Assembly: GCA_964497545.1 (NCBI GenBank)
Contig: CAZCCY010000003.1
Coordinates: forward strand, 1 to 46,487
Direction of reading: 5' to 3'
From: an uncultured Methanosarcinales archaeon
GTDB lineage: Archaea > Halobacteriota > Methanosarcinia > Methanosarcinales > CAZCCY01
DNA: 46,487 bases
Part shown: positions 16,289 through 26,905 of the stretch, piece by piece
How positions within the stretch are numbered: the stretch's first letter is position 1
Layout: every line of letters starts with the position of its first letter
Notes under the pieces: model-generated
What the model saw: only the letters and a program-made list of their open reading frames with translations
Told to the model about the DNA's origin: nothing
Database searches by the model: none
Position numbers and translations under genes: made by a program

Positions 16289-16597
16289 ATGTATCTGCGA
16301 TACATCTTCTCATTATTGGCACCTGCCCCATTGATCTTTGCACAAGTTGCAGAGGCCCTGGTTCTGCAGGGTGGCCAGGGGACATTTAAAACCAGGCCAA
16401 GGGTCGCGGTGGCAGCATACCACACACCTGTCCAGGCGATGGAGGTCTCCACCTGCCTGACAAAAATGGGATACCAGCCGGGAATAGAGTACGCCCGCTC
16501 AGGCGTCTACCGGGCCATGCAGGACCATGTGCCCATCATCTACGGTGGCGTCTCAGGGAGAGGAGGATTAGGGCCAGGATTGTTAGGGGGGCTGTGA
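16289..16597 (+). CDS. Orphan ORF of uncertain reality
   Basis: Coding-like GC content but no recognisable motif. The last 60 nt are antisense to the C-terminus of the convergent DUF3344 gene. Confidence 0.2.
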   Translation: MYLRYIFSLLAPAPLIFAQVAEALVLQGGQGTFKTRPRVAVAAYHTPVQAMEVSTCLTKMGYQPGIEYARSGVYRAMQDHVPIIYGGVSGRGGLGPGLLGGL

Positions 16598-17432
16598 AAC
16601 CTGGTGTTTTTGAGGGAGAGGTGTGTTTCACTGTCAGGAAGGCGTTGCTGACCACCATGTAGTCTCCGTTGTCCTTGATTCGGATGATGTTTTCTCCTTT
16701 TTTCAGGTAGGGTTTAACGTCTCTTGTGTCGATTGCCAGGTCAGGATAGGGTTTGCCCTGGTAGACCTGGTTCCAGGTTTTTTTGTTGAAATAGAGGGTG
16801 TTTTTACCCTTGTTGCCGCCTGCCACCACGGTGGTGAGTGTGGCTTTTTCTGCCTTGTCAGGGATGTTGTTGAAGCGGATTTCGGTGGTTGTGTTTTTTA
16901 TGCCCTGGAAAGCGTAAATCATGTCTGCCCCCTCGGCGAGCCAGTACTCAGTGTCTCCCTGGTAGACCAGGAGGAGTCCCATCCCGTTTATGGCGAAGTT
17001 GCCCTGGCCTGTGTTTTTTACCATGGCTGTGCAGTCTTTTTTGGTTACAAGGCCTGTGACGTTGTAGGCGTAGGTGCCGCTGGGGTAGTTGTAGGGGTCT
17101 TCTCCTTTCTGGTCGGTGTATTTTCTCTCGGGTGTGAGCAGTTTTCCCTGGAAGGTTGTTTCCATGGATGGGTTTACTCCCTGGTCTCCCTGGTGGCTCC
17201 AGGTCCAGTAGAGGTAGAGTCTTGCAAGTTTTATTTCACCCTCTCTGGGGAGGGTGAATTTCACGGTGTAGCTATCGCCTGGTGCCAGCTCGCCGCTGTA
17301 GGTGCTGTTTCCTATGGTGAAAACAGGCTCGCCTTTCCCGTGCTGGTAGGTTTCGAGCCGGTCTCCGGTGTAGGATGCTAGGGCGGGGGGTGTCAGGATG
17401 AGTGCCAGTGCGAGTGCTGCTATGATTTTCAT
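16536..17432 (-). CDS. Secreted DUF3344-like protein (single B-type domain) with PGF-CTERM sorting signal
   Basis: Signal peptide 'MKIIAALALALILTPPALA'. Blocks 'GNSTYSGEL', 'IKLARLYLYWTWSH', 'YPSGTYAYNVTGLV' and 'EYWLAEGADM' are shared with the paralogues. C-terminal 'PGFTAPLTILALILLSLRRHRR'. Confidence 0.8.
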   Translation of the reverse strand: MKIIAALALALILTPPALASYTGDRLETYQHGKGEPVFTIGNSTYSGELAPGDSYTVKFTLPREGEIKLARLYLYWTWSHQGDQGVNPSMETTFQGKLLTPERKYTDQKGEDPYNYPSGTYAYNVTGLVTKKDCTAMVKNTGQGNFAINGMGLLLVYQGDTEYWLAEGADMIYAFQGIKNTTTEIRFNNIPDKAEKATLTTVVAGGNKGKNTLYFNKKTWNQVYQGKPYPDLAIDTRDVKPYLKKGENIIRIKDNGDYMVVSNAFLTVKHTSPSKTPGFTAPLTILALILLSLRRHRR

Positions 17433-17462
17433 CTTTTCTCTCTCTTTTTTTAGGAGGAAACC

Positions 17463-17480
17463 GGGGGGGAGACCCCCCCC
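17463..17480. other. G7-AGA-C8 homopolymer hairpin between two genes of the DUF3344 array
   Basis: GGGGGGG-AGA-CCCCCCCC read directly. It lies 3 nt after the stop of the 79-aa ORF and 30 nt before the start at 17432. Confidence 0.5.
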
Positions 17481-17483
17481 ATT

Positions 17484-17723
17484 TTATGGCTTTCTTTTGA
17501 TGGGTGATATTTTACCGGGTGTGATGTCTATGGTGGCTATTTTTGTCACCCCATGGGTTTTGTTGCTGATTAGGGTCACTGGCTCCTGGGCATGTTCGTT
17601 GGATTGTAGCTGTGGGAGTGTCATTGCCAGTGCTGCTACCAGGGCCAGTGCCAGGGCGATTGCCTTCCACCTGCGTGCCTCCATTTCGGCTTTGTTGAGA
17701 CTCTCTGTTTCAGTATTTGGCAT
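17484..17723 (-). CDS. Small signal-anchored protein (79 aa)
   Basis: One TM segment 'WKAIALALALVAALAMTL'. It overlaps the end of the 807-aa gene by 14 nt and is co-oriented within the array. No family was recognised. Confidence 0.35.
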   Translation of the reverse strand: MPNTETESLNKAEMEARRWKAIALALALVAALAMTLPQLQSNEHAQEPVTLISNKTHGVTKIATIDITPGKISPIKRKP

Positions 17724-20133
17724 AGATGTTGTACCTCCCTTTCTCCATTTCCAGTGCGAAGCTCCCGTCGCTGTGTGTCATTGTGATGTAGACCCGTTCT
17801 TCGTCTGTGTCCTGTTGTCCATTGTCGTTGGCATCGTAGTATCCCACGTTGGTCAGGTATTCCTGGGTTTTGTGGGTGAAGGGGTCTGTGAGGTTCAGTT
17901 TTAGCTCGATGCTTGTGGTTTTTATTTTTGTCCAGTCCCATTCTGAGGGGTCTGTGGTGGCGTTTATCCCGTAGACTTCTATGTTGGGTGCTTCCCGTTT
18001 CCCGGCGACCTGGTTGAATTTGTTGTAGACTGCGAAGAAGAGGGTGCCTGTTGCTGCTCCGTAGCGGCTGTCTGGTACTGTTTTTATGCCGAGCTCGCTC
18101 AGTTCTCCTGGTGTGATGTCTGTGACGCCCAGGTCTGGGAGTTTGGGCTTGGTTTTGAGTATGAGTATGGCGTTGCTTGGTACTATGTAGTCGCCTCTGT
18201 CCTGGATGGCGAGTTTGTTGTTACTGGGCTGGAGGTGGCTGCCCACCTCCCACCGGTCTACCGCGATGAGCTGTCTGGAGGAGGGTGCGTCTGTTGTTCC
18301 GAGGAGGTGGGTGTTAAATGTAACCTTGTTTTTGTCCTGGTCGCCCTTGTCTGCACCCGGGATGACTGTTATGAGTGTGGCGTTTTTCACGGTGTCGAGG
18401 TCCACAGGGCCGTTGAAGTCTATCTGGGTGGTTGCCTGTTCTGGTGGGATGTCTTTTGCGTAGAGCATGTCTGCGCCCTCTGCGAGCCAGTATTCTATCT
18501 CAGTGCTGGTGTCTTCCACCACCACAAGTAGTCCTACCCCGTACATGGCGAAGTTGCCCTCGCCTGTGTTGTTAATGGTTGTGGTGTAATTCCCTTTACC
18601 GGTTACCAGGTCTGTCACATTGTAGGCGTAGGTCCCGCTGGGATAGTCAAAGCTGCCAAAGCCTTTGCTGTCAGAGTATTTCTCCTCTGGCGTGATGGTT
18701 GTCCCGTTGAATTTCACCTCCATCTCTGGATCGGCGCCGGTGTCCTCTTTGTGGCTCCAGCTCCAGTAGAGGTAGAGTCTTGCCAGTTTGATGGTGGCGT
18801 CAGTTTTCAGTTCTGACTCCACGGTGTAGCTGTCACCGTTTGCCAGCTCCCCGCTGTAGGTGCTGTTTCCCAGGGTGAATATTATGTCCCCTTGTATTTT
18901 CTCGTGTCTGTAGATGGTGAGGGGTTTGTCTCCGAAATACCCGTTTTTTGTCACAACCTCGGCGTCTGTGCTGTTCGCATTGTTTGTCTCATTGGATTCC
19001 TCGACCTCTCCCTCTGGGTCTGCTCTGACCTCGAGGAGGTAGGTTCCAGTCCCGGGTGGGTTCCAGGAGAATTCTACCGTGGTGTTTGAGCCTGGGTTCA
19101 GGCCCGGGATTTCCACGGTGTCGGTGGGGTTGCTGTCCACGTAGAGTGTGGCGTTGAAGGCTGTGGCGCTTCTTGTGCCCTGGTTGGCAATTTCAGCTTT
19201 TATGGTGCTGGGGGTGTTGTTGTAGATGAAAGCTGGCAGGCTCAGGTTCCCCACGGTGAGGTCTGGTTTCCCTGGTGGTGCGCCTTTTGTCAGTAAAAGC
19301 ACTGCAATTACCGGGTGCAGGCTTGTCCCGCTCCCCCGGTCAAACACCAGGGTGTTACTGGACGAAGCGAGTTTGTCTGTGACATCCCAGCTGTCCAGGT
19401 CAAAGTAGCTTCCCTGGTCTGCTTTTGCAGCGTCTGTGGCGATGGTGTTCCCGTTAAGGGTGAGGGTGTCGTCATCGCCTTTTTTGCTTGCAATGTATGC
19501 TGTCCAGAGGGTGGCGGTGCTACTGGTGTCGATTGTGCCCTGGAAGGCTGTGGAGGCTGTGTCTTTCGGGGTCTTGTGGTTGGGGTTCTCGTTCCCCTCG
19601 TTTATCCAGTACTCTATCTCCTCCCCGGTGGGGTCATTGTAGGCTGCTACAAGCACCATGCCATAGACCCGGCCGTCGATGTCTCCGCTGGTTGTGGCGG
19701 TCGCGGTATTCGAGCCTTCTTTGATTTTGTCGGTTACATTGTAGGCTGTCCAGTAGACGCCATAGCCTGACACGTAGACGTTGGGGTTTGTGTCGGCTTG
19801 ACCTCCGAGGTTTAAGGTTCCGAGGTCGTTGCTGTTAAAGGTTGTCTGAAGTGTACCGGTGTACTCAGGGTTGCCGCCCCAGACCCCCACGTAGAGTCTT
19901 GCGTATTTGATGCTGGATGGCACGTTGTTGAAGGTCTGAGTGTAGGGAGAGGATTTCAGGCCGTGTCCGCCGTTGATGTAGATTCCGCCTTTTATGGTTT
20001 CGTGTCTTGTGGTGCTGAGGGGTATGCCGTCGAAATTGTAGATGGCGGATGCTGGTGTTATCAGGAGTATCGCGCAGGATGCGAGCCACGCCATCCCCAC
20101 TATTTTTCTTTTTTTTATTTTTTTGATTTTCAC
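17710..20133 (-). CDS. Large secreted protein: DUF3344 A-type domain, CARDB domain, DUF3344 B-type domain, unknown C-terminal domain
   Basis: Signal peptide '..AWLASCAILLITPASA'. A-domain blocks are 'IKYARLYVGVWGG', 'VYWTAYNVT', 'YGMVLVAAY', 'EYWINEGNE' and 'YFDLDSWDVT'. CARDB block is 'PDLTVGNL...IANQGT...EESNETNN'. B-domain blocks match 16536-17432. The GTG start overlaps the upstream stop (GTGA). Confidence 0.85.
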   Translation of the reverse strand: MKIKKIKKRKIVGMAWLASCAILLITPASAIYNFDGIPLSTTRHETIKGGIYINGGHGLKSSPYTQTFNNVPSSIKYARLYVGVWGGNPEYTGTLQTTFNSNDLGTLNLGGQADTNPNVYVSGYGVYWTAYNVTDKIKEGSNTATATTSGDIDGRVYGMVLVAAYNDPTGEEIEYWINEGNENPNHKTPKDTASTAFQGTIDTSSTATLWTAYIASKKGDDDTLTLNGNTIATDAAKADQGSYFDLDSWDVTDKLASSSNTLVFDRGSGTSLHPVIAVLLLTKGAPPGKPDLTVGNLSLPAFIYNNTPSTIKAEIANQGTRSATAFNATLYVDSNPTDTVEIPGLNPGSNTTVEFSWNPPGTGTYLLEVRADPEGEVEESNETNNANSTDAEVVTKNGYFGDKPLTIYRHEKIQGDIIFTLGNSTYSGELANGDSYTVESELKTDATIKLARLYLYWSWSHKEDTGADPEMEVKFNGTTITPEEKYSDSKGFGSFDYPSGTYAYNVTDLVTGKGNYTTTINNTGEGNFAMYGVGLLVVVEDTSTEIEYWLAEGADMLYAKDIPPEQATTQIDFNGPVDLDTVKNATLITVIPGADKGDQDKNKVTFNTHLLGTTDAPSSRQLIAVDRWEVGSHLQPSNNKLAIQDRGDYIVPSNAILILKTKPKLPDLGVTDITPGELSELGIKTVPDSRYGAATGTLFFAVYNKFNQVAGKREAPNIEVYGINATTDPSEWDWTKIKTTSIELKLNLTDPFTHKTQEYLTNVGYYDANDNGQQDTDEERVYITMTHSDGSFALEMEKGRYNIYAKY

Positions 20134-21884
20134 TGTTTCTCCCTTCTTGTTATTTTTCGTTTTTTCTGGATTATCAGGAAGGCTGAGAGTCCGACAAGCA
20201 TCAGGATGGCGGATGGAAGCTCGGGGACTGGTGCTGGACTTCCTGGGCTTGAGCCCAGTATCAGGAAGGCGTTGCTTGGCACCATGTAGTCGCCCATATC
20301 CAGGACTCCAAGCTTGTTACCGGCTGATTGCACATATGCTAAGACATCGCGGGTGTCCACCGCGGTTGCGGAGGAGTCCAGCACCCCGGTCCAGGCCTGG
20401 TTGTTGAATAAAATCTCGTTTTTATCCTGGTCGCCCTTGTTTGCACTTGGGACAACAGTAATCAGGGTTGCACTCACAAGGTTACCGGGAATCACGTAAC
20501 CATCGAAGTTGATGTAGGTTGTCTGGTCCGGGGCAGTACCATAGCTTGTTTTTGCATAAACTGTGTCCGCACCCTCGGCAATCCAGTATTCCTTCCATTC
20601 TCCATTGGGGTCCTCAAATACGACAAGTAACCCTACTCCATACATGGCGAAGTTGCCCTGACCTGTGTTTTCCACCACGGTTGTGTAGTCTTTTGTGGCT
20701 GTCACAAGGCTTGTGACATCATAAGCATAGGTCCCGCTGGGATAGTCATAGCTGCCGAAGCCTTTGCGGTCATAGTATGTCCTATCCGGGGTAAGGGCGT
20801 TCCCGTCAAATTTTACTTCCATTTGGGGCTGGGTGACGCCCTGGCTCCCCTGGTGGCTCCAGCTCCAGTAGAGGTAGAGTCGTGCCAGCTTAACCGTGGA
20901 GCCAGAGGGAACATCCACATGGGATGTCACGGTGTAGGTGTCACCATTTGACATCTCCCCGCTGTAGCTGCCTCCAACGGTGTAGTTGAGACTTCCTTTT
21001 ACACTGTCGTGTCTGTAGATGGCCAGCGGCCTGTCAGCGAAATACCCGTTTTTCTCTTTCTTGGTGATTGCAAGCACTGCAAGTACCGGGTGAAGATGGG
21101 AATCGCTCCCCCTGTCAAACACCAGCGTGTTACTGGACGAAGTGAGTTTGCCTGTGACATCCCAGCTGTCCAGGTCGAAGTAGCCTCCTTGGTCTGCGGC
21201 TGCAGCGTCTGTGGCAATGAGGTTCCCGTTGAGGGTGAGGGTGTCACCATCCCCGCTTCCTCCTGCTAGGTAGGATGTCCAGAGTGTGGCGTTTTCCACC
21301 CCGGTGAGGTTAACTGTGCCATTGAAATAGCTGTCTGCTGTGTCTTTTCCAGAATGGAGATGCTCGTTACCCTCGTTTATCCAGTATTCCACAAGCGGCT
21401 GGCTCTGGTCCTCGTAGACTGCTACAAGCACCATGCCATAGACCCGGCCGTCAATGTCTCCACTGGTGGTGGCAGTTGCTGTGTTCGAGCCTGTGTTAAC
21501 CATGCCGGTCACATCATAGGCTGCCCAATAGACGCCGAATGCTGAGACATATACATTGAGGTTGGTGTCGGCTTGACCTCCGAGGTTTAAGGTTCCCAGG
21601 TCCTGGCCATTAAAGGTTGTCTGGAGTGTACCGGTGTACTCAGGCTTGCCGCCCCAGACTCCCACGTAGAGTCTTGCATATCTGATGTTGGATGGAACAT
21701 CGTTGAAGGTCTGAGTGTAAGGTGGATATGCCAGACCGTGGCCACCACTGACGTAGATTCCGCCTGCAAGGGTTTCGTGTCGTATGTTTTTCAGTTCGAA
21801 TCCATCTACATTGTAGTTTGCCGATACTGGTATTGCCAGGAGAACGAGCACTCCCACCAGTCCTATCCACATACATGTTCTCAT
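20130..21884 (-). CDS. Secreted DUF3344 protein (A-type plus B-type domains) with a PEF/PGF-like C-terminal membrane anchor
   Basis: Signal peptide 'MRTCMWIGLVGVLVLLAIPVSA'. It shares the A and B blocks of the 807-aa paralogue. The tail is 'SPAPVPELPSAILMLVGLSAFLIIQKKRK'. GGAGG lies 7 nt upstream of the ATG. Confidence 0.85.
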   Translation of the reverse strand: MRTCMWIGLVGVLVLLAIPVSANYNVDGFELKNIRHETLAGGIYVSGGHGLAYPPYTQTFNDVPSNIRYARLYVGVWGGKPEYTGTLQTTFNGQDLGTLNLGGQADTNLNVYVSAFGVYWAAYDVTGMVNTGSNTATATTSGDIDGRVYGMVLVAVYEDQSQPLVEYWINEGNEHLHSGKDTADSYFNGTVNLTGVENATLWTSYLAGGSGDGDTLTLNGNLIATDAAAADQGGYFDLDSWDVTGKLTSSSNTLVFDRGSDSHLHPVLAVLAITKKEKNGYFADRPLAIYRHDSVKGSLNYTVGGSYSGEMSNGDTYTVTSHVDVPSGSTVKLARLYLYWSWSHQGSQGVTQPQMEVKFDGNALTPDRTYYDRKGFGSYDYPSGTYAYDVTSLVTATKDYTTVVENTGQGNFAMYGVGLLVVFEDPNGEWKEYWIAEGADTVYAKTSYGTAPDQTTYINFDGYVIPGNLVSATLITVVPSANKGDQDKNEILFNNQAWTGVLDSSATAVDTRDVLAYVQSAGNKLGVLDMGDYMVPSNAFLILGSSPGSPAPVPELPSAILMLVGLSAFLIIQKKRKITRREKQ

Positions 21885-21980
21885 ACTTTTCCTCCATATT
21901 ACTCCTATTTAGTAATACTAATTCTCGTGTAGATAGAATTTAAACTACATAAATGTTTCTTATAATCAGAAATTTTAAGT

Positions 21981-22006
21981 AAAAAAAACAAAAATTTAAT
22001 AAAAAA
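21981..22006 (-). terminator. Oligo-T tracts (T8, T6 on the coding strand) after the S-component gene
   Basis: Plus-strand A8 (21981-21988) and A6 (22001-22006) lie downstream of the stop at 22027-22029. AT-rich promoter-like DNA for the next gene follows. Confidence 0.35.
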
Positions 22007-22026
22007 TACTATTTTTTCTTTGTATT

Positions 22027-23097
22027 TCATATTGTTGCTTTTCGCATCTTCCGGGCGATATCATACCCAATGTAACCGCCAATAACACCCCCCAGAGCGG
22101 CAATGCCAACCTCGCTCCAGGCATACCAGGGAGCATAATACACCTTCCACACCGCAGGAGCAAAAAGAAAATAAAACGTCCAGTACGAAAACCCACCCCT
22201 GACAACACCATAAATAATAGACGTCCCCCGTTTATCCCCATAATCCCGGAACAACATCACAAGCACATCCACAATCACACCCTCACCCATGTACCACCCA
22301 AGCCAGAGAGTGACATTAGTCCCCCACACCACCATCGCCACAAGCTCCACCACAGTGAAAAGCAGGGTGGCTGTCCCAGGCTTCCTCACCAGCTGAAGCG
22401 CAACTATCAACACCACCGTGGTAGGAATCGTGAAGAGAAGCCCGCCCAGCGGGCCCAGCAGGTCATTAAAGGTCTGCCAGAACCACCGGAACACCACCCC
22501 AATAAGAGCGGCAAGAAGCGCCAGGGTAACCAGGTCAATGGTGGTAAACCACTCAAGCAACCTGAGCCTCCGGGACACCAGAAACACAACCAACACAATA
22601 AGAAAACTGGCAACCAGACTCCCGTAGGTCACCCAGGAAGGAGGCGGCACAACCTCCACCTCATGGATGTAACTCTCCCTCCTAACACCACCACCATCAG
22701 AATAACTCACATTCACCCGGAAGCTCACACTCTTCCTGAACTCCACAGACTCAGGCGGCTTAACCGAGAAAACAAAAGAACTAGAATCCCCTGGCCCCAG
22801 GACATCAATAACAGCCTTCACCCTTCCACCCTCCACCCAGGTCTCGGTCTCCTGGCCAGGAACCTCAACATCCATACCAGACGGGACATCCACACTCACC
22901 CTGACATCCCGCAAAGGCGTCTCACCATTGTTGGTCAGGGTGACCCTCGCCCTCTCATGCCAGGTGACACCTGCCACCAGCCTGTCAGATTCATAGATGT
23001 CCTTGTTCTTCACAGGTATGGTCATCCCCACCTCCAGCCCGCCCACTGCCAGACAGGCAAGGAGAATGATAACCAGGACAAAAAGGGAGCGCCTCAT
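22027..23097 (-). CDS. YkoE-like ECF transporter S component with an N-terminal signal peptide and beta-sandwich ectodomain
   Basis: The C-terminal ~190 aa are multi-TM: 'TTIDLVTLALLAALIGVVF...LVRKPGTATLLFTVVELV...', resembling the YkoE / ABC_cobalt-type S-component pattern. The N-terminal ~160 aa are 'VTLTNNGETPLRDVRVSVDVPSG...'. An ATGA overlap couples it to the upstream gene. Confidence 0.65.
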   Translation of the reverse strand: MRRSLFVLVIILLACLAVGGLEVGMTIPVKNKDIYESDRLVAGVTWHERARVTLTNNGETPLRDVRVSVDVPSGMDVEVPGQETETWVEGGRVKAVIDVLGPGDSSSFVFSVKPPESVEFRKSVSFRVNVSYSDGGGVRRESYIHEVEVVPPPSWVTYGSLVASFLIVLVVFLVSRRLRLLEWFTTIDLVTLALLAALIGVVFRWFWQTFNDLLGPLGGLLFTIPTTVVLIVALQLVRKPGTATLLFTVVELVAMVVWGTNVTLWLGWYMGEGVIVDVLVMLFRDYGDKRGTSIIYGVVRGGFSYWTFYFLFAPAVWKVYYAPWYAWSEVGIAALGGVIGGYIGYDIARKMRKATI

Positions 23098-24008
23098 CTC
23101 CTACGCCTCAACCGATAAAAGAAAAACACGACACTGGCCACCAGCACCACAATTACCGGCATCGGGACAGTAGCCCTCCCAGGGCCAACCTGCCCACCCA
23201 GCCTGAGATAATCCTCCCCCTGGTCATAGAGGTACTCCACCGCCAGAACCGCGTTGAAAGGATGAATATATGCCTCCTCACCCCGCTCAAACCTCAAGGT
23301 GTTATTCAAACCCACCAGGCCTGTCACATCCCACCTGTCCAGGTCAAAATACGCCCCGGACTTCGCCCTACCCACATCCTCTCCCAGAAGCTGGGAGTTA
23401 AAATAGAGACGATCCTCCTCACCCTTGTTCCCCGCTATTAAAACCGTCCAGAGAGTGGCATTTTTTATTTCAAGGGAGGTGGCATTGAAGACAACACTGG
23501 TACTATCCCTGGTCTGACGGGCAAGAGCCTGGTTCCCCTCTGCTATCCAGAACTCGGTCTGAGGCATGCTAGAATTCCGATAAACAGCAACAAGGACAAT
23601 ACCATAGGGGGCACCATTCAGATTATGATACCTCACCGAGACCCTGTTCACACCCTCTGATAGCATGCCGGTGACATTGTAGACATAACATGCAACACCC
23701 CAGGCTGCCAGATAATCAGGAGAACTCCGCCTCCCAAGAGTCCTGTTATTGATGCTCACCTCAAGCCAGTCATCCCTGTTGTAATTCCACATCGGCACAT
23801 AGAGCCTGGCATACTCTATCCTGGAGGGCAAGTCAAAATACTCCTCATAAGGGTTTTCATGGGTGTAACCATGGCCACCCCCCACAAACACGCCCCCATG
23901 CACCCTGCCCTCAGCCACAACATAGAGGGGTGTCCCCTCCCCCCTCCACTCACCCCCACTTGCAACCGGGACAAAAAGAAGAAGGACAAAAAGAAGGACA
24001 ACCCTCAT
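23094..24008 (-). CDS. DUF3344-like (A-type) extracytoplasmic protein with a C-terminal TM anchor, embedded in the ECF operon
   Basis: Signal peptide 'MRVVLLFVLLLFVPVASG'. Blocks are 'IEYARLYVPMWN', 'CYVYNVTG', 'YGIVLVAVY', 'EFWIAEGNQ' and 'YFDLDRWDVT'. The tail is 'VPMPVIVVLVASVVFFFYRLRRRR'. ATGA overlaps occur at both ends. Confidence 0.8.
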   Translation of the reverse strand: MRVVLLFVLLLFVPVASGGEWRGEGTPLYVVAEGRVHGGVFVGGGHGYTHENPYEEYFDLPSRIEYARLYVPMWNYNRDDWLEVSINNRTLGRRSSPDYLAAWGVACYVYNVTGMLSEGVNRVSVRYHNLNGAPYGIVLVAVYRNSSMPQTEFWIAEGNQALARQTRDSTSVVFNATSLEIKNATLWTVLIAGNKGEEDRLYFNSQLLGEDVGRAKSGAYFDLDRWDVTGLVGLNNTLRFERGEEAYIHPFNAVLAVEYLYDQGEDYLRLGGQVGPGRATVPMPVIVVLVASVVFFFYRLRRRR

Positions 24009-24841
24009 GTTGGAGCAGTCCCCCCATACCCTGTAAAACTGAGATAGACACCAGCCCCCAGGGAGAGGAAAATATATGCCAGTAAAATGAAATCCCCCTT
24101 TTTGAGTTTCAGCTCCCGCAGATATGTCCGGTTCTTCACTGCCCGGAAGGCACGGGCATCTGCAGCAATGGCAATCTGCCTCCCTGTCCTGAGCACATTG
24201 ACAACCAGGGGCAGGAGAAGATGCCTCAGAGCCTTTATCTTATTCTTTTTTATTTTCAAACCCCGCGCCTGCATGGCGTTTATGGTGATAGCACCTCCCT
24301 CTATCATGGAGGGGGCGAAACCCACAGCAGAGGAAACCATGAAAGCAATCTCAGGGGGCAGACCCAGACTCCGCCTGCCCCACGGGATAAACCTGACAAG
24401 CCCCACAATAAGCTCGCTGGGATGGGTGGTGGCAACCAGCACCATGGCAGCACTCACCGATGCCATGAACCTGAGCGACTGGATAAGCCCATAGATTGCA
24501 CCCTCGCGATAAAAATAGATTCCACCAGTGATGCTCCCCAGCACCGGGAAATCAGGGGGCACCAGCGTAAACGTGGGAGTGTCCCCCCAGTAATAGAAAA
24601 AGGACTGGGAGACCATGAATCCGAAAACCATGGTGGAGAGAATAAATATCATGGAGACAACCTTCTCCCGGGAAAAAGCAATCCAGAAGGGGAGGGTGGA
24701 GAGGAAGACAGCTAGAAGCATCCAGGGCACACCCACCATCACCGAGAGCACCGAGACACTGAACACCCACAACAGCTTGACACGGGGGTCAAGCTGATGA
24801 ACAAAGGTGTCCTTCTGATCATACCGGAATATGCCACGCAA
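24005..24841 (-). CDS. ecfT: ECF transporter T component (EcfT / CbiQ / YkoC family)
   Basis: 'LDPRVKLLWV' N-terminus, multi-TM body, and 'ARG' coupling-helix-like motifs ('AMQARGL', 'ADARAFR'). The TTG start has GGAGGAGG 9 nt upstream. Confidence 0.85.
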   Translation of the reverse strand: MRGIFRYDQKDTFVHQLDPRVKLLWVFSVSVLSVMVGVPWMLLAVFLSTLPFWIAFSREKVVSMIFILSTMVFGFMVSQSFFYYWGDTPTFTLVPPDFPVLGSITGGIYFYREGAIYGLIQSLRFMASVSAAMVLVATTHPSELIVGLVRFIPWGRRSLGLPPEIAFMVSSAVGFAPSMIEGGAITINAMQARGLKIKKNKIKALRHLLLPLVVNVLRTGRQIAIAADARAFRAVKNRTYLRELKLKKGDFILLAYIFLSLGAGVYLSFTGYGGTAPT

Positions 24842-24983
24842 AAACCACAGCCTCCTCCAATCTCAACACAACTTTTTTAACATTAATATCAATAAAGGTA
24901 ACACCAAAAGTTAAATTCATGATATTTATACTTAATTGATGACAGCATAATTGATATAAATAGTAAATATTCCTATTACATGT
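24842..24983. promoter_or_regulatory. AT-rich divergent promoter region between ecfT and ecfA
   Basis: TATAAATA at ~24955-24962 lies 22-29 nt before the ecfA ATG, suggesting a leaderless transcript. On the other strand, TTTATTGATATTAATG-type TATA-like sequence lies upstream of ecfT. Confidence 0.4.
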
Positions 24984-26528
24984 ATGATTTCCATCGAAAA
25001 TCTAACCTACTACTACCCTGACTCTGAAAAACCAGCCCTCCAGAACATAAACCTGAAGATAAACAAGGGCGAATTCGTGCTGCTTGTAGGTCCAACCGGG
25101 AGCGGGAAATCCACCCTCCTCCAGTGCCTCAACGGCATAATACCCAGAGTAACCGGCGGCAGACTGGAAGGAAAAATAGAAATCAATGGTAAAACCACCA
25201 CCCAACACAAAGTATACCAGCTATCCCAGATAGTGGGAATGGTGTTCCAGAACCCTGACACCCAGCTTTTCGGGCTCACCGTAGAAGAAGACACCGCCTT
25301 CGGACCTGAAAATCTGGGACTGCCCAGAAGAGAAATCCAGAAACGGGTAGAAAAAGCCCTGGAAACCACAGGTATCCCCCACCTCAGAGACCGGTTCACC
25401 TTCACACTCTCAGGCGGAGAAAAACAGCGGACAGCCATAGCAGGAAACCTGGCCATGAAACCAGAGATACTGGTACTGGACGAACCCACCTCAGACCTCG
25501 ACCCCCAGGGCACAAAACAGGTGCTGGAAACCATAAAAAAACTGAACAGAGAACAGAAAATCACCATAATACTGGCAGAACACAAAATAGACCAAATAAT
25601 CAAAATGGCCACGAGAACCATCGTGATGGACAGGGGCACCATAATACTGGACGGAAAAACCAGTGAAATCTTCAAAAACAAAACCCTGGAAAACATAGGA
25701 ATCCATTCACCCCAGCTAAAACATCTCCCCCAATTTAAAACCACATCCCCCAGGGCACACCCGGCCGGGAACCCCCAGATAATATTCGAAAATGTCTATT
25801 TCAGTTACCACAAAACACCAGTACTCAGAAACATAAATCTCACCATAAACAAAGGAGAGTTCATGGCGATAATAGGGCCAAACGGCTCTGGCAAAACCAC
25901 CCTCCTGGGCTGCCTCATAGGGCTCATAAAACCCACCCAGGGCAGAGTGCTGATAGAGGGAGAGGACATCTCAAAAAAAAGCGTACCAGAACTGGCAGAA
26001 AAAGTCGGATACCTCTTCCAGAACCCGGACTACCAGCTCTTCACCGACACCGTGACCGAGGAGATAGCCTTCGGCCTCAAAAACCGGAACCTCCCCCCCA
26101 CCGAGATAGAAAAGAGAGTGGAAAAAACCCTGGAAACCATGGAACTAACAGAGTACAGGGACCGACATCCCCAGTCCCTCAGCCGGGGACAGCGACAGCG
26201 GCTGGCCCTGGCATCCATACTGGCACTGGAACCAGAGGTCCTCCTCCTGGACGAGCCCACCACTGGCCAGGACAGAGGACACCTGAAAAAACTCCTCCAG
26301 AAAATAAAAGAACTGAACAACACCGGGAAAACCATACTCCTGGTAACACACGATATGGACCTGGCACTGGAAAACACCCACCGGACAATCGTAATGAAAG
26401 ACGGCAGAATACTCCTGGACGCACCCACACCCCAGGTGTTATCTGAAATACTGGAAAAAGCATCCTTTGCCTTCCAGAGAGAAATCACCCAGGCCATGCT
26501 TGCAGCCTGCAGCAATTTTAAAGGGTGA
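24984..26528 (+). CDS. ecfA: Duplicated ECF/ABC ATPase (EcfA-EcfA' fusion, YkoD-like)
   Basis: Two full ABC cassettes: 'GPTGSGKST...LSGGEKQR...LDEPTSDLD' and 'GPNGSGKTT...LSRGQRQR...LDEPTTGQD'. Confidence 0.9.
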   Translation: MISIENLTYYYPDSEKPALQNINLKINKGEFVLLVGPTGSGKSTLLQCLNGIIPRVTGGRLEGKIEINGKTTTQHKVYQLSQIVGMVFQNPDTQLFGLTVEEDTAFGPENLGLPRREIQKRVEKALETTGIPHLRDRFTFTLSGGEKQRTAIAGNLAMKPEILVLDEPTSDLDPQGTKQVLETIKKLNREQKITIILAEHKIDQIIKMATRTIVMDRGTIILDGKTSEIFKNKTLENIGIHSPQLKHLPQFKTTSPRAHPAGNPQIIFENVYFSYHKTPVLRNINLTINKGEFMAIIGPNGSGKTTLLGCLIGLIKPTQGRVLIEGEDISKKSVPELAEKVGYLFQNPDYQLFTDTVTEEIAFGLKNRNLPPTEIEKRVEKTLETMELTEYRDRHPQSLSRGQRQRLALASILALEPEVLLLDEPTTGQDRGHLKKLLQKIKELNNTGKTILLVTHDMDLALENTHRTIVMKDGRILLDAPTPQVLSEILEKASFAFQREITQAMLAACSNFKG

Positions 26529-26905
26529 TAAAGCCTATTCTTGGGGGGTGTATGAGACACCTCCCAGGTCTTGTGGAAGAGGGTAGCCCTGTTTACCTCC
26601 GGCTCTCCCGGGGTCAAGGCGAGACCTCAGGCCAGCTTTTCTGTGAGCTCGTGCAGGCAGCCCGCTTTGGCAGGAGCTTCCGCATCTCAGACCAGGCTTG
26701 CCGGGTGGGAAGATATGTCCTGGGGGATGAGGAGTCGCCTGCCAGCTATTATGCGGAAAAAGGGAGGTATCAGAGCTCTGAGGCTGCAAGGCGGGCTGCA
26801 GAGGGCCTGCCCAGACTCAAGAAGGGCTATGCGTCCCTGGGGTCAGGGATATTGAGGAGGCTCTGGAAAAAATATCGGAGACACTGGGATGAAGGTCTGT
26901 GTTGA
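26525..26905 (+). CDS. Possible truncated DUF169-like ORF (may be a decayed gene)
   Basis: 'FCELVQAARFGRSF...ACRVGRYVLGDEE...YYAEKGRYQSSEAARRAAEGLPRL' resembles the N-terminal half of DUF169 (COG2043) proteins from memory. The C-terminal half is absent. Another frame ends 'DIEEALEKISETLG*' in an ATGA overlap with the next gene. Confidence 0.3.
   Translation: MIKPILGGCMRHLPGLVEEGSPVYLRLSRGQGETSGQLFCELVQAARFGRSFRISDQACRVGRYVLGDEESPASYYAEKGRYQSSEAARRAAEGLPRLKKGYASLGSGILRRLWKKYRRHWDEGLC

What the first reader, a model, noticed from the sequence alone, without database searches (positions are those of the whole stretch)
22027..23097. ECF S component fused to a signal peptide and ~150-aa beta-sandwich ectodomain
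The 356-aa ORF is continuous. It has an N-terminal signal/TM segment 'MRRSLFVLVIILLACLAVGG', then a hydrophilic domain with an Ig/CARDB-like strand pattern ('RVTLTNNGETPLRDVRVSVDVPSG', 'SSFVFSVKPP', 'VSFRVNVSY'). A ~190-aa multi-TM body follows that looks like a YkoE-type S component ('LVRKPGTATLL'). S components are normally bare ~6-TM proteins of about 180-200 aa. An extracellular domain on one would be an unusual architecture. It fits an extracytoplasmic partner such as the adjacent DUF3344 protein.
Basis: partly seen in the sequence, partly recalled or inferred. Interest (0 to 1): 0.6.

Follow-up and report, generated by a model that had tools for sequence, protein, structure and literature searches.

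The report
ECF transporter subunit with outward-facing domain
This archaeal gene encodes the substrate-capturing membrane subunit of an ECF-type vitamin/metal importer that, unusually, carries an outward-facing Ig-like domain; it always comes with a surface protein of unknown function, and bacterial relatives are switched by vitamin-B12 sensors.

Summary
The 356-aa ORF (22027-23097, minus strand) is intact. It reads signal peptide, about 130-aa Ig-like (NEW3/CARDB-type) beta-sandwich, one extra transmembrane helix (TM0), then a six-helix ECF S-component body.

The body matches canonical YkoE-type S components (PF09819) in a profile-profile comparison (99.5%, E 2.8e-21). The gene closes a translationally coupled EcfT-DUF3344-S operon that lies opposite a fused EcfA-A' ATPase gene.

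It is not a fusion artefact. The same full-length architecture is found in ANME-2, Methanosarcina, Methanoperedens, Methanomicrobiales, Helarchaeota and one Firmicute. It occurs in 41 of 301 genomes sampled from the class.

Wherever upstream sequence exists, a membrane-anchored single-domain DUF3344 gene lies directly upstream, or one gene away in Helarchaeota.

New here: distant bacterial homologues share the whole architecture (99.9%, E 7.5e-35). In two independent loci they lie behind cobalamin riboswitches, together with TonB-dependent receptors and corrinoid adenosyltransferases.

The substrate is therefore probably a corrinoid or another Co/Ni compound. This is inferred, not shown.

I found no paper describing the family. 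Sequence look-ups found this S family in no other scanned window, though the scan has noted DUF3344 clusters in many other genomes.

I class it as a new variant of a known kind.

The parts
22027..23097 (-). Gene for the 356-aa ectodomain-bearing ECF S component. The stop codon is at 22027-22029.
   Evidence: ORF. Full-length orthologues. AF2 model.
23038..23097 (-). Residues 1-20: Sec-type signal peptide (MRR, then hydrophobic core, then AVGG). Probably cleaved.
   Evidence: Strongest hydrophobic segment of the protein. Helix 2-16 with low pLDDT. Orthologues end in A-x-A-like sites. Cys15 is not conserved, so this is not a lipobox. Cleavage is not tested.
22642..23037 (-). Residues 21-152: Ig-like beta-sandwich ectodomain of NEW3/CARDB type.
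   Evidence: PF10633 at 27.5 bits against a gathering score of 24.4. All-beta in the model. Foldseek hits to integrin calf/thigh, TRAP beta/delta, cohesin, pilins and YcnI. Weak similarity to the neighbour's CARDB domain, E 0.008. Only 6 of 132 positions are near-invariant.
22564..22641 (-). Residues 153-178: extra transmembrane helix TM0 (out to in). It is followed by the cytoplasmic stretch RRLRL.
   Evidence: Model helix 154-178. Hydropathy and charge distribution. The PPPSW.TY motif at its start is conserved.
22030..22563 (-). Residues 179-356: six-helix S-component body. H1 carries an AxxxA-type motif (A193-LL-A196-A197). The loop between H2 and H3 carries VRKPGT.
   Evidence: hhalign against a canonical PF09819 profile: 99.5%, E 2.8e-21. 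PF09819 hits. 60 of 178 positions are near-invariant.
23094..24008 (-). 304-aa single-domain DUF3344 protein: signal peptide, two jelly-roll beta-sandwiches, a C-terminal TM anchor and an RRRR tail. Its stop codon overlaps the S start codon (ATGA).
   Evidence: PF11824, E 8.5e-37. The overlap is visible in the sequence. The same arrangement occurs in about 50 loci. AF2 pLDDT 87.8. Foldseek finds jelly-roll / sugar-binding-like folds.
24005..24841 (-). EcfT (CbiQ-type T component), 278 aa. Its end overlaps the DUF3344 start by 4 nt.
   Evidence: PF02361, E 2.4e-24. The coupling-helix motifs QARG and DARAF can be read in the translation.
24984..26528 (+). Fused EcfA-EcfA' double ATPase, 514 aa, transcribed divergently.
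   Evidence: TIGR04520 and TIGR04521 at E 1e-152 and 7.5e-150, two ABC_tran domains.
24842..24983 (.). 142-bp AT-rich divergent promoter region between ecfT and ecfAA'.
   Evidence: Sequence. A TATA-like TATAAATA box is conserved in ANME-2a orthologous regions. No Rfam riboswitch was found.
21885..22026 (-). AT/T-rich spacer after the S gene. It looks like an oligo-T terminator plus the promoter of the next DUF3344 gene.
   Evidence: Sequence. This reading is an inference only.
16536..21884 (-). Array of three further DUF3344 genes (584 aa; 807 aa with a CARDB domain; 298 aa). Together with the partner gene they hold all six DUF3344 domains of this genome.
   Evidence: Pfam. Own-genome search.

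Best explanation
The gene encodes the dedicated S (substrate-capture) component of a group-I ECF importer.

Predicted protein, after export and probable signal-peptide cleavage:
- an Ig-like beta-sandwich outside the membrane;
- one extra helix (TM0) that returns the chain to the cytoplasm;
- a canonical six-helix S fold, distantly related to YkoE (PF09819).
The S fold docks through its helix-1 AxxxA-type motif onto EcfT and is driven by the fused EcfA-A' ATPase.

A membrane-anchored double-jelly-roll DUF3344 protein is made from the same translationally coupled mRNA. I infer that it is a stoichiometric extracytoplasmic partner. It, possibly with the larger DUF3344 paralogues downstream, would capture the substrate at the cell surface and pass it to the S pocket. 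The ectodomain would act as docking or guiding platform.

The substrate is most likely a corrinoid or another cobalt- or nickel-containing compound, because homologues with the same architecture in Gram-negative bacteria sit in cobalamin-riboswitch operons.

Shown: the architecture, its homology to S components, its conservation and its gene context.
Inferred: signal-peptide cleavage, the S-DUF3344 contact and the substrate.
For: Architecture:
- ORF and domains.

S-component identity:
- hhalign against canonical PF09819: 99.5%, E 2.8e-21.
- 19 of 22 members hit PF09819.
- A canonical PF09819 protein, P0152, is a direct phmmer hit.
- T-S fusion homologues P0131 and P0137 exist.
- An AxxxA-type motif is conserved in H1. 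Its role is described in PMC11109136.
- EcfT and EcfA-A' are adjacent.

Conservation:
- 57 genome loci.
- 41 of 301 genomes of the class, and 10/12 and 12/12 in two families. Always a single copy; full length wherever the contig allows; no internal stops.

DUF3344 partnership:
- In about 50 loci from archaea and a Firmicute, a DUF3344 gene of about 290-350 aa with a signal peptide and a C-terminal TM anchor lies directly upstream (one gene away in Helarchaeota). In ANME-2a-type and Methanomicrobiales loci the genes overlap by 4 nt.
- The four bacterial loci with a bare 206-aa homologue have no DUF3344.

Substrate:
- Archaeal and bacterial fused families are homologous over 352 columns, ectodomain included (99.9%, E 7.5e-35).
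- Two independent bacterial loci have RF00174 cobalamin riboswitches (75 and 68 bits) in front of TonB receptor-(TonB)-fused S-(EcfAA-EcfT)-PduO/BtuR.
- A third locus has TonB receptor-S-EcfAA-EcfT.
- The Firmicute locus is flanked by CobN and ChlI/D.
- The S body conserves many Trp/Tyr and no His/Cys/Met, which fits an organic ligand better than a bare ion.
- The genome already has two CbiM-type Ni/Co systems and no FecCD/BtuC-type permease above cut-off.
Against: - No experiment exists, and no ligand-bound structure of any family member.
- The window protein is 19-22% identical to P0141 and P0150, the two homologues shown to lie behind riboswitches (19-27% across the wider bacterial fused group), so specificity may differ.
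- Cobalamin riboswitches also control cobalt ECF systems (PMC2667541). The riboswitch therefore does not separate corrinoid from Co2+.
- Only two independent riboswitch loci were found.
- NikR-family genes lie next to DUF3344 clusters on Methanoperedens plasmids (bioRxiv 10.1101/2022.02.01.478723) and in one ANME-2a locus. This points to nickel.
- No riboswitch or other recognised regulator site was found in the window or in the archaeal loci scanned.
- This genome has CbiD, so it probably makes corrinoids itself.
- The ectodomain has almost no invariant polar residues, so a ligand-binding role for it is unlikely and its docking role is pure inference.
- The bacterial fused homologues lack DUF3344, so the ectodomain does not need it.
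- Foldseek gave no function-specific match for DUF3344; TM-scores were 0.2-0.28.
Confidence: 0.7

Rival explanations
1. Same architecture and ECF mechanism, but the substrate is a nickel or cobalt ion, or a small Ni/Co chelate. The system would be a functional analogue of NikKMLQO / CbiMNQO. The ectodomain plus the DUF3344 protein would play the part of the extracytoplasmic accessory proteins NikK/NikL/CbiN.
For: - NikR lies next to DUF3344 and EcfT/EcfA genes on Methanoperedens plasmids.
- A NikR-family paralogue lies at the end of the ANME-2a cluster L014.
- B12 riboswitches are known in front of cobalt ECF systems (PMC2667541).
- The hosts are Ni/Co-hungry methanogens and methanotrophs.
- The DUF3344 partner has invariant His46, His249, Glu197, Asp199, Asp222 and Glu245.
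- CbiM/NikM also have a seventh N-terminal helix (established knowledge).
Against: - The S body has no conserved His, Cys or Met, and its outward-facing loops are rich in Trp/Tyr.
- The N-terminal Met-His metal-binding motif of CbiM/NikM is absent, and PF01891 does not match.
- The genome already encodes two CbiM systems.
- Corrinoid adenosyltransferases and BtuB-like receptors in the bacterial operons fit corrinoid salvage better.
Confidence: 0.2
2. A YkoE-like vitamin or precursor importer (thiamine / HMP or another small organic cofactor) that happens to carry an ectodomain. The B12 and Ni links of relatives would be irrelevant to the archaeal clade.
For: - The closest annotated family is PF09819 / YkoE.
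- The HMM of the archaeal S body scores canonical PF09819 proteins (51-57 bits for P0152, P0159, P0180) higher than the riboswitch-linked bacterial fused group (32-38 bits).
- The pocket is aromatic.
Against: - No TPP riboswitch or thiamine gene lies nearby.
- The ectodomain-bearing architecture is shared specifically with the B12-riboswitch-linked group.
- Identity to the canonical family is only about 28%.
- Strict coupling to surface DUF3344 arrays is unexplained for a small vitamin.
Confidence: 0.07
3. Not an importer. The S-fold protein and the ECF module would act as a membrane anchor or motor for assembling, anchoring or remodelling DUF3344 surface proteins, comparable to mechanotransmission ABC systems.
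For: - All DUF3344 genes of the genome lie in this cluster.
- MacB-type FtsX/ABC pairs accompany the cluster in 23 related loci.
- The ectodomain shows no conserved ligand site.
Against: - The S body is far more conserved than the ectodomain, with a pocket-like set of invariant polar and aromatic residues.
- Bare and bacterial fused homologues work with ECF modules and without any DUF3344.
- The riboswitch context implies uptake of a metabolite.
Confidence: 0.03

Closest known systems
YkoE (S component of the YkoEDC thiamine/HMP ECF transporter; Pfam PF09819 ABC_cobalt)
   Same: The six-helix body is homologous (hhalign 99.5%, E 2.8e-21). It shares the H1 TTxDLxxIAxxAA motif, LGPxGG and VRKPG. 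Both work with a dedicated ECF module.
   Different: YkoE-type proteins are bare, about 190 aa. They have no signal peptide, no ectodomain and no TM0. Identity is about 28%. No thiamine context was found here.
ECF-CbrT (Lactobacillus delbrueckii cobalamin ECF transporter, PMC5997447) and the solitary S-like protein BtuM (PMC6072759)
   Same: Both are S-fold proteins for corrinoid uptake. The bacterial relatives of this family lie in B12-riboswitch operons, as predicted and known B12 transporters do. One of them (P0141) has no ECF module nearby, like BtuM.
   Different: There is no detectable sequence similarity: the family profile finds no S-component chain in the PDB at E <= 10. CbrT and BtuM have no ectodomain, no TM0 and no DUF3344 partner. 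CbrT belongs to group II, which shares one ECF module among several S components.
CbiMNQO / NikMNQO / NikKMLQO group-I metal ECF transporters
   Same: - A dedicated ECF module is encoded with the S unit.
- The S unit has a seventh, N-terminal helix with its N-terminus outside, and is often made with a cleaved signal peptide.
- Extra extracytoplasmic or membrane accessory proteins take part (CbiN, NikN, NikK, NikL; PMC2667541).
- There is a Ni/Co/B12 regulatory theme.
   Different: - No homology to CbiM (PF01891 does not match).
- No N-terminal Met-His metal site.
- The accessory element here is a folded Ig-like domain fused to the S unit, plus a 300-aa jelly-roll protein.
5TMR-LYT sensor histidine kinases (S-component fold with an extra helix H0; PMC11109136)
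   Same: An S-component fold preceded by an additional N-terminal helix H0 that runs from outside to inside.
   Different: Those are receptors that lack the AxxxA motif and an ECF module, and their added domains are cytoplasmic and C-terminal. Here the added domain is extracellular and N-terminal, and the ECF module and the AxxxA-type motif are present.
BtuG / BtuH surface B12-capture lipoproteins of Bacteroides (functional analogy for DUF3344 only)
   Same: Surface-exposed beta-rich proteins encoded beside the membrane transporter, which capture the substrate outside the cell.
   Different: The folds differ (BtuG is a beta-propeller). There is no sequence or structural match. The analogy is an inference and has not been tested.

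Membership tests
ECF transporter S component (general) | Core of six membrane helices (S-component fold) | tested here: met
   The AF2 model is helical from 186 to 355. DSSP lists five helices. I read six, splitting the 186-237 helix at the conserved LGPxGG turn, and hydropathy agrees. The body aligns over its full length with canonical S components. A fold search of the TM body alone could not be run, because the full-length search was dominated by the beta-sandwich.
ECF transporter S component (general) | AxxxA-type small-residue motif in helix 1 that contacts EcfT | tested here: met
   A193-L-L-A196-A197. A193 is near-invariant and A196 is invariant. Position 197 is Ala or Gly. The same IAxxAA pattern is in the PF09819 consensus. 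The role of the motif is described in PMC11109136.
ECF transporter S component (general) | Encoded with, or dependent on, EcfT and EcfA/A' | tested here: met
   EcfT lies two genes upstream in the same coupled operon, and the fused EcfA-A' gene is divergent. The arrangement is conserved in about 40 loci. T-S fusion homologues exist.
ECF transporter S component (general) | High-affinity substrate binding and ECF-dependent uptake | not testable with these tools
   Needs biochemistry.
YkoE family (Pfam PF09819) | Score above the Pfam gathering threshold | tested here: inconclusive
   23.5 bits against 25.2 in hmmscan. 27.3 bits, over the cut-off, in the six-frame genome search. 19 of 22 relatives match at E < 0.01. 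Profile-profile probability is 99.5%. This is a divergent sister group rather than an orthologue.
YkoE family (Pfam PF09819) | Thiamine/HMP context (TPP riboswitch, ykoCD-type operon) | tested here: not met
   No TPP riboswitch in the window or in eight related loci. No thiamine genes were seen in the contexts examined.
CbiM/NikM metal S components | PF01891 homology and an N-terminal Met-His metal-binding end | tested here: not met
   There is no PF01891 hit. The N-terminus after the signal peptide is LEVGMTIP, with no conserved His. Only the 7-TM topology is analogous.
Cobalamin S components (CbrT, BtuM) | Sequence homology to the characterised proteins | tested here: not met
   The family profile finds no S-component chain in the PDB sequence set at E <= 10. 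The B12 link comes from context only.
NEW3 / CARDB-type Ig-like domain (PF10633, E-set-like) | Pfam score above gathering, and a beta-sandwich fold | tested here: met
   27.5 bits against 24.4. 6 of 22 relatives also match. The model is all-beta, with Foldseek matches to Ig-like sandwiches at E 5e-6 to 1e-4.

The most novel reading that the evidence does not exclude
This would be a previously undescribed class of 'tethered-receptor' ECF importers.

- The S component carries its own extracellular Ig-like platform.
- In archaea it works with a surface double-jelly-roll protein (DUF3344) to capture corrinoids, or other metallated tetrapyrroles or Ni/Co chelates, at the S-layer and feed them into the S pocket.
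- That would give DUF3344 its first function.
- It would also identify the corrinoid or trace-metal scavenging route of ANME-2 and Methanosarcina, which in this genome lacks a BtuCD-type importer.
Probability: 0.3. Interest if true: 0.75.

Novelty: new variant of a known kind. Interest (0 to 1): 0.6.

Why it matters
- S components are textbook bare six-helix proteins that bind substrate unaided and topple in the membrane. A conserved family with a folded ectodomain, an extra helix and an obligatory surface partner questions how general that picture is. It offers an ECF counterpart to the substrate-binding proteins of classical ABC importers.
- The family is near-universal in the two ANME-2 families sampled. 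It links three poorly understood items: DUF3344 surface arrays of methane-cycling archaea, B12-riboswitch operons with unannotated membrane genes in Gram-negative bacteria, and CobN-type chelatase neighbourhoods.
- It turns DUF3344 function and archaeal corrinoid / Ni / Co acquisition into testable questions, because Methanosarcina species with genetic tools carry the same cluster.

Tried and rejected
- **PDB sequence searches** with the protein and with the family profile found no S-component chain.
- **Foldseek on the full-length model** returned only beta-sandwich matches. hhalign replaced that test.
- **DUF3344 fold search** gave only generic jelly-roll / sugar-binding-like matches with low TM-scores (a PNGase, BcsB, GH2 domains, PRD1 P3). 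No function could be assigned.
- **More B12-linked homologues.** The metagenome scan and the last word-indexed homology search, both meant to collect these, returned only the query itself. A 401-genome phylum survey around a bare homologue found only five bare copies. The genomes holding the riboswitch loci are not held.
- **Rosetta-stone DUF3344-S fusion.** It was suspected in L023 (681-aa open frame) but is an ORF-caller artefact in GC-rich DNA. The 535-aa ORF in L055 runs through masked N.
- **Lipoprotein idea** (LLAC). Rejected, because the Cys is not conserved.
- **NikR operator** in the divergent promoter. One GTAACAC-like half-site but no convincing palindrome, and my recollection of the consensus is not reliable.
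- **Tree of S bodies.** Too poorly resolved at the base to say whether the ectodomain was gained once and lost repeatedly.
Full report
**1. The observation**

Pfam finds two domains:
- a NEW3/NPCBM_assoc Ig-like domain at residues 49-106 (27.5 bits; gathering score 24.4);
- the YkoE-type S-component family PF09819 at residues 188-284 (23.5 bits, just under the 25.2 cut-off).

The six-frame search of the genome scores the same PF09819 stretch at 27.3 bits, over the cut-off. It is the only PF09819 match in the 1.6-Mb assembly, which is 91% complete.

An AlphaFold2 model built on 22 family members (mean pLDDT 86.3, pTM 0.72) shows:
- an N-terminal helix at 2-16 with low confidence;
- an all-beta domain at 21-150;
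- a helix at 154-178;
- a helical region from 186 to 355. DSSP lists five long helices there. I read six TM helices, splitting 186-237 at the conserved LGPxGG turn.

Hydropathy and charge fit a topology of signal peptide, ectodomain outside, TM0 running out to in, then a six-helix body with its C-terminus inside. The cytoplasmic connections (SRRLRL, RKPG, RDYGDK, tail RKMRK) carry the basic residues. The outer loops carry none or one.

The ectodomain is about 130 aa, not about 150. The 'multi-TM body' is an extra helix plus a 178-aa S body.

**2. Is the membrane body an S component?**

Yes.
- 19 of 22 family members match PF09819 at E < 0.01.
- A canonical PF09819 protein (P0152, 100.8 bits to the Pfam model) is a direct phmmer hit of the query in the exhaustive 1.8-billion-protein search.
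- A profile of the fusion family's body, aligned globally against a profile of 30 canonical PF09819 proteins, gives 99.5% probability, E 2.8e-21, over 174 of 180 columns.
- That alignment shares the helix-1 TTxDLxxIAxxAA motif, LGPxGG and the VRKPG loop.
- Helix 1 carries the small-xxx-small (AxxxA-type) motif. In characterised S components this motif contacts EcfT (PMC11109136).
- Some homologues of the body are fused behind a complete CbiQ/EcfT domain (P0131, P0137).

The family profile does not reach any solved S component by sequence. The full-length fold search was dominated by the beta-sandwich. No direct structural match of the body is therefore reported.

**3. Is the fusion real?**

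Yes.
- The word-indexed search returned 139 proteins. Nearly all are 347-378 aa and align over 94-100% of the query.
- The genome collection gave 57 loci. They come from ANME-2a (Ca. Methanocomedens; the closest, about 65% identity), ANME-2c (Ca. Methanogaster), Methanoperedens, Methanosarcina, Methanospirillum/Methanoregulaceae, Helarchaeota and one Firmicute MAG.
- In a sample of 301 genomes of the class, 41 have a single copy with no internal stops, full length wherever the contig allows.
- Two families are nearly saturated (10/12 and 12/12). One large genus has 14/40. One family of 105 genomes has none.
- No orthologue splits the gene.

**4. Gene context**

In the window, ecfT (24005-24841), a 304-aa DUF3344 gene (23094-24008) and the S gene overlap by 4 nt each. 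A fused ecfA-ecfA' gene is transcribed divergently. An AT/T-rich spacer follows the S gene.

My ORF/phmmer survey of all fetched loci gives the following.
- Every fused S gene with upstream sequence available has a DUF3344 gene of about 290-350 aa directly upstream. In ANME-2a-type and Methanomicrobiales loci the two genes overlap in ATGA. In Helarchaeota the order is DUF3344-EcfT-S.
- This partner always has a signal peptide, a conserved mature N-terminus (GEWRGxGTPL), one DUF3344 domain, and a C-terminal TM helix with a polybasic tail.
- Four bacterial loci with a bare 206-aa homologue (TM0 plus S body, no ectodomain) have TonB receptor-EcfAA-EcfT-S and no DUF3344.

All six DUF3344 domains of this genome lie in this cluster.

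The DUF3344 partner models confidently (pLDDT 87.8) as two beta-sandwiches plus the anchor helix. Foldseek finds only generic jelly-roll / carbohydrate-binding-like folds with low TM-scores. Its invariant residues include GGHG, WN, E197, D199, D222 and RGxExYxHP.

**5. A lead to the substrate**

The exhaustive search also found remote full-length homologues in bacteria (P0136, P0141, P0145, P0146, P0150; 19-27% identity).

A profile-profile comparison of the archaeal family with these five gives 99.9% probability, E 7.5e-35, over 352 columns. The match runs from the signal peptide through the ectodomain and TM0 to the end of the S body. The whole architecture is therefore shared and old.

Their contexts:
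- P0141: cobalamin riboswitch (RF00174, 75 bits), TonB-dependent receptor, fused S, PduO-type adenosyltransferase.
- P0150: cobalamin riboswitch (68 bits), TonB-dependent receptor, TonB, fused S, EcfAA, EcfT, CobA/BtuR adenosyltransferase.
- P0146: TonB-dependent receptor, fused S, EcfAA, EcfT, with the contig starting inside the receptor gene.
- P0136 and P0145: followed by ABC ATPase genes on short contigs.

The Firmicute member of the archaeal-type clade is flanked by MotA/ExbB, DUF2149 and a CobN plus ChlI/ChlD chelatase.

Within the archaeal family the S body is highly conserved: 63% mean pairwise identity and 60 of 178 near-invariant positions. These include many Trp/Tyr plus D188, R204, N211, D277, D288 and R300, but no His, Cys or Met. 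The ectodomain is not conserved in this way: 34% identity and 6 of 132 near-invariant positions, mostly Pro/Gly.

I read this as one conserved pocket for an organic ligand in the membrane body. The ectodomain would serve as scaffold or docking surface rather than as ligand site.

**6. Competing signals**

- Cobalamin riboswitches also precede cobalt-specific ECF systems (PMC2667541).
- The Methanoperedens plasmid paper notes NikR next to DUF3344 genes and an EcfT/EcfA transporter.
- One ANME-2a locus ends in a NikR-family paralogue, after a MacB-type FtsX/ABC pair that accompanies the cluster in 23 loci but not in this window.
- The window's genome has two CbiM-type systems and three EcfT genes. 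It has CbiD, which suggests de novo corrin synthesis. It has no CobN and no FecCD/BtuC-type permease over the cut-off.
- No riboswitch was found in the window or in the archaeal loci scanned.

My estimates for the substrate:
- corrinoid or related metallated tetrapyrrole: about 40%;
- Ni/Co ion or small chelate: about 30%;
- another small cofactor: about 15%;
- non-transport role or other: the remainder.

These cut across the rival scores, which also weigh mechanism.

**7. Mechanism proposed**

Shown:
- a dedicated ECF module with an S component that has an exported Ig-like domain and a seventh helix;
- a co-translated, membrane-anchored DUF3344 protein.

Inferred:
- the signal peptide is cleaved;
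- DUF3344, and perhaps the larger paralogues with CARDB and sorting tails, bind the substrate at the surface;
- the ectodomain positions this partner over the S pocket;
- the S body then delivers the substrate through the usual EcfT-coupled cycle.

The extra helix and ectodomain need not block toppling, since CbiM/NikM also have seven helices (established knowledge). This has not been tested. Because bacterial members have the ectodomain without DUF3344, the ectodomain must also have a partner-independent role, or other partners such as TonB-side periplasmic proteins.

**8. Comparison with what is known**

The protein is a divergent relative of YkoE. It is not an orthologue of YkoE, CbiM, CbrT or BtuM (see the membership table).

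The closest functional parallels are:
- CbiMNQO/NikKMLQO, for a dedicated module, a 7-TM S unit and extracytoplasmic accessories;
- ECF-CbrT and BtuM, if the substrate is a corrinoid.

The S-component-fold survey (PMC11109136) describes an N-terminal H0 only in sensor kinases, and reports no extracellular domain on S components in the passages I searched. Full-text searches for DUF3344, PF09819/COG4721 and ECF plus riboswitch terms found no description of this family. NCBI and UniRef label some members 'ECF transporter S component' or 'hypothetical protein'.

**9. Earlier notes of this scan**

- These are leads, not evidence.
- DUF3344 clusters have been noted in at least 34 genomes, with MacB-type ABC pairs, NikR sites and CobN fusions.
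- Other ECF S components with outward-facing domains have been noted behind B12 riboswitches.
- Sequence look-ups found this particular S family in no other scanned window.
- A follow-up on the overlapping operon finding exists but was withheld.

**10. Verdict**

The architecture is a genuine, conserved and apparently undescribed variant of an ECF S component. The substrate and the role of the ectodomain remain inferred.

Noticed in passing
L071:4450-4647 and L076:3090-3254 (also L074, L077): Cobalamin riboswitches sit in front of TonB-receptor operons that contain unannotated ectodomain-bearing S-fold genes (P0141, P0150) and corrinoid adenosyltransferases. P0141 has no ECF module within 7 kb, so it may act alone, as BtuM does.
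   Followed up: partly
L014:12104-12331 (-), at the end of the ANME-2a cluster: A NikR-family paralogue (NikR_C at 57.5 bits; ORF cut by the contig end) follows the DUF3344 / MacB-type ABC block. In the part of the sequence I read, I did not see a His/Cys-rich stretch such as I recall for the NikR nickel site. That check rests on memory and on reading the sequence only.
   Followed up: partly
L001, L013, L014, L019, L021, L022, L026, L028, L046-L048, L050-L054, L056, L058, L059, L061, L063, L068: A MacB-type permease (MacB_PCD + FtsX), where checked with a 224-aa ABC ATPase, accompanies the DUF3344/ECF cluster in 23 loci. No such gene was found in this window.
   Followed up: partly
upstream of ecfT in L027, L039, L045 (Methanomicrobiales) and L014-L021 (ANME-2a): Repeated CGTAA(G/C)A...CGTAAAAC or GTAATAC...GTAA(A/C)AT elements lie between the TATA-like box and ecfT. 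They may be a regulator site. The window has only one GTGTTAC element there (window 24900-24906).
   Followed up: no
P0143, P0144, P0151, P0155: A further clade has a larger ectodomain (about 200 aa). P0143, P0144 and P0151 also have an insertion of roughly 25-75 aa that splits the S body into two HMM matches. P0144 sits beside an RDD-family gene, with no ECF module in 6.7 kb.
   Followed up: no
P0131, P0137: These are EcfT(CbiQ)-S fusion proteins whose S part belongs to the bare branch of this family. P0131 joins T directly to helix 1 without TM0, as topology requires.
   Followed up: partly
whole genome G000: No FecCD/BtuC-type permease scores above the Pfam cut-off in this 91%-complete genome. 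All 14 control genomes give a FecCD match, 13 of them above the cut-off. CobN is also absent, while CbiD is present.
   Followed up: partly
L004/L057 (Firmicute MAG): DUF3344 proteins carrying SLH domains, a MotA/ExbB-DUF2149 pair and CobN+ChlI/D surround the same EcfT-DUF3344-S-EcfAA module. This suggests transfer of the whole module between archaea and bacteria.
   Followed up: no
window 26525-26905: The 126-aa ORF that overlaps the end of ecfAA' was not examined.
   Followed up: no
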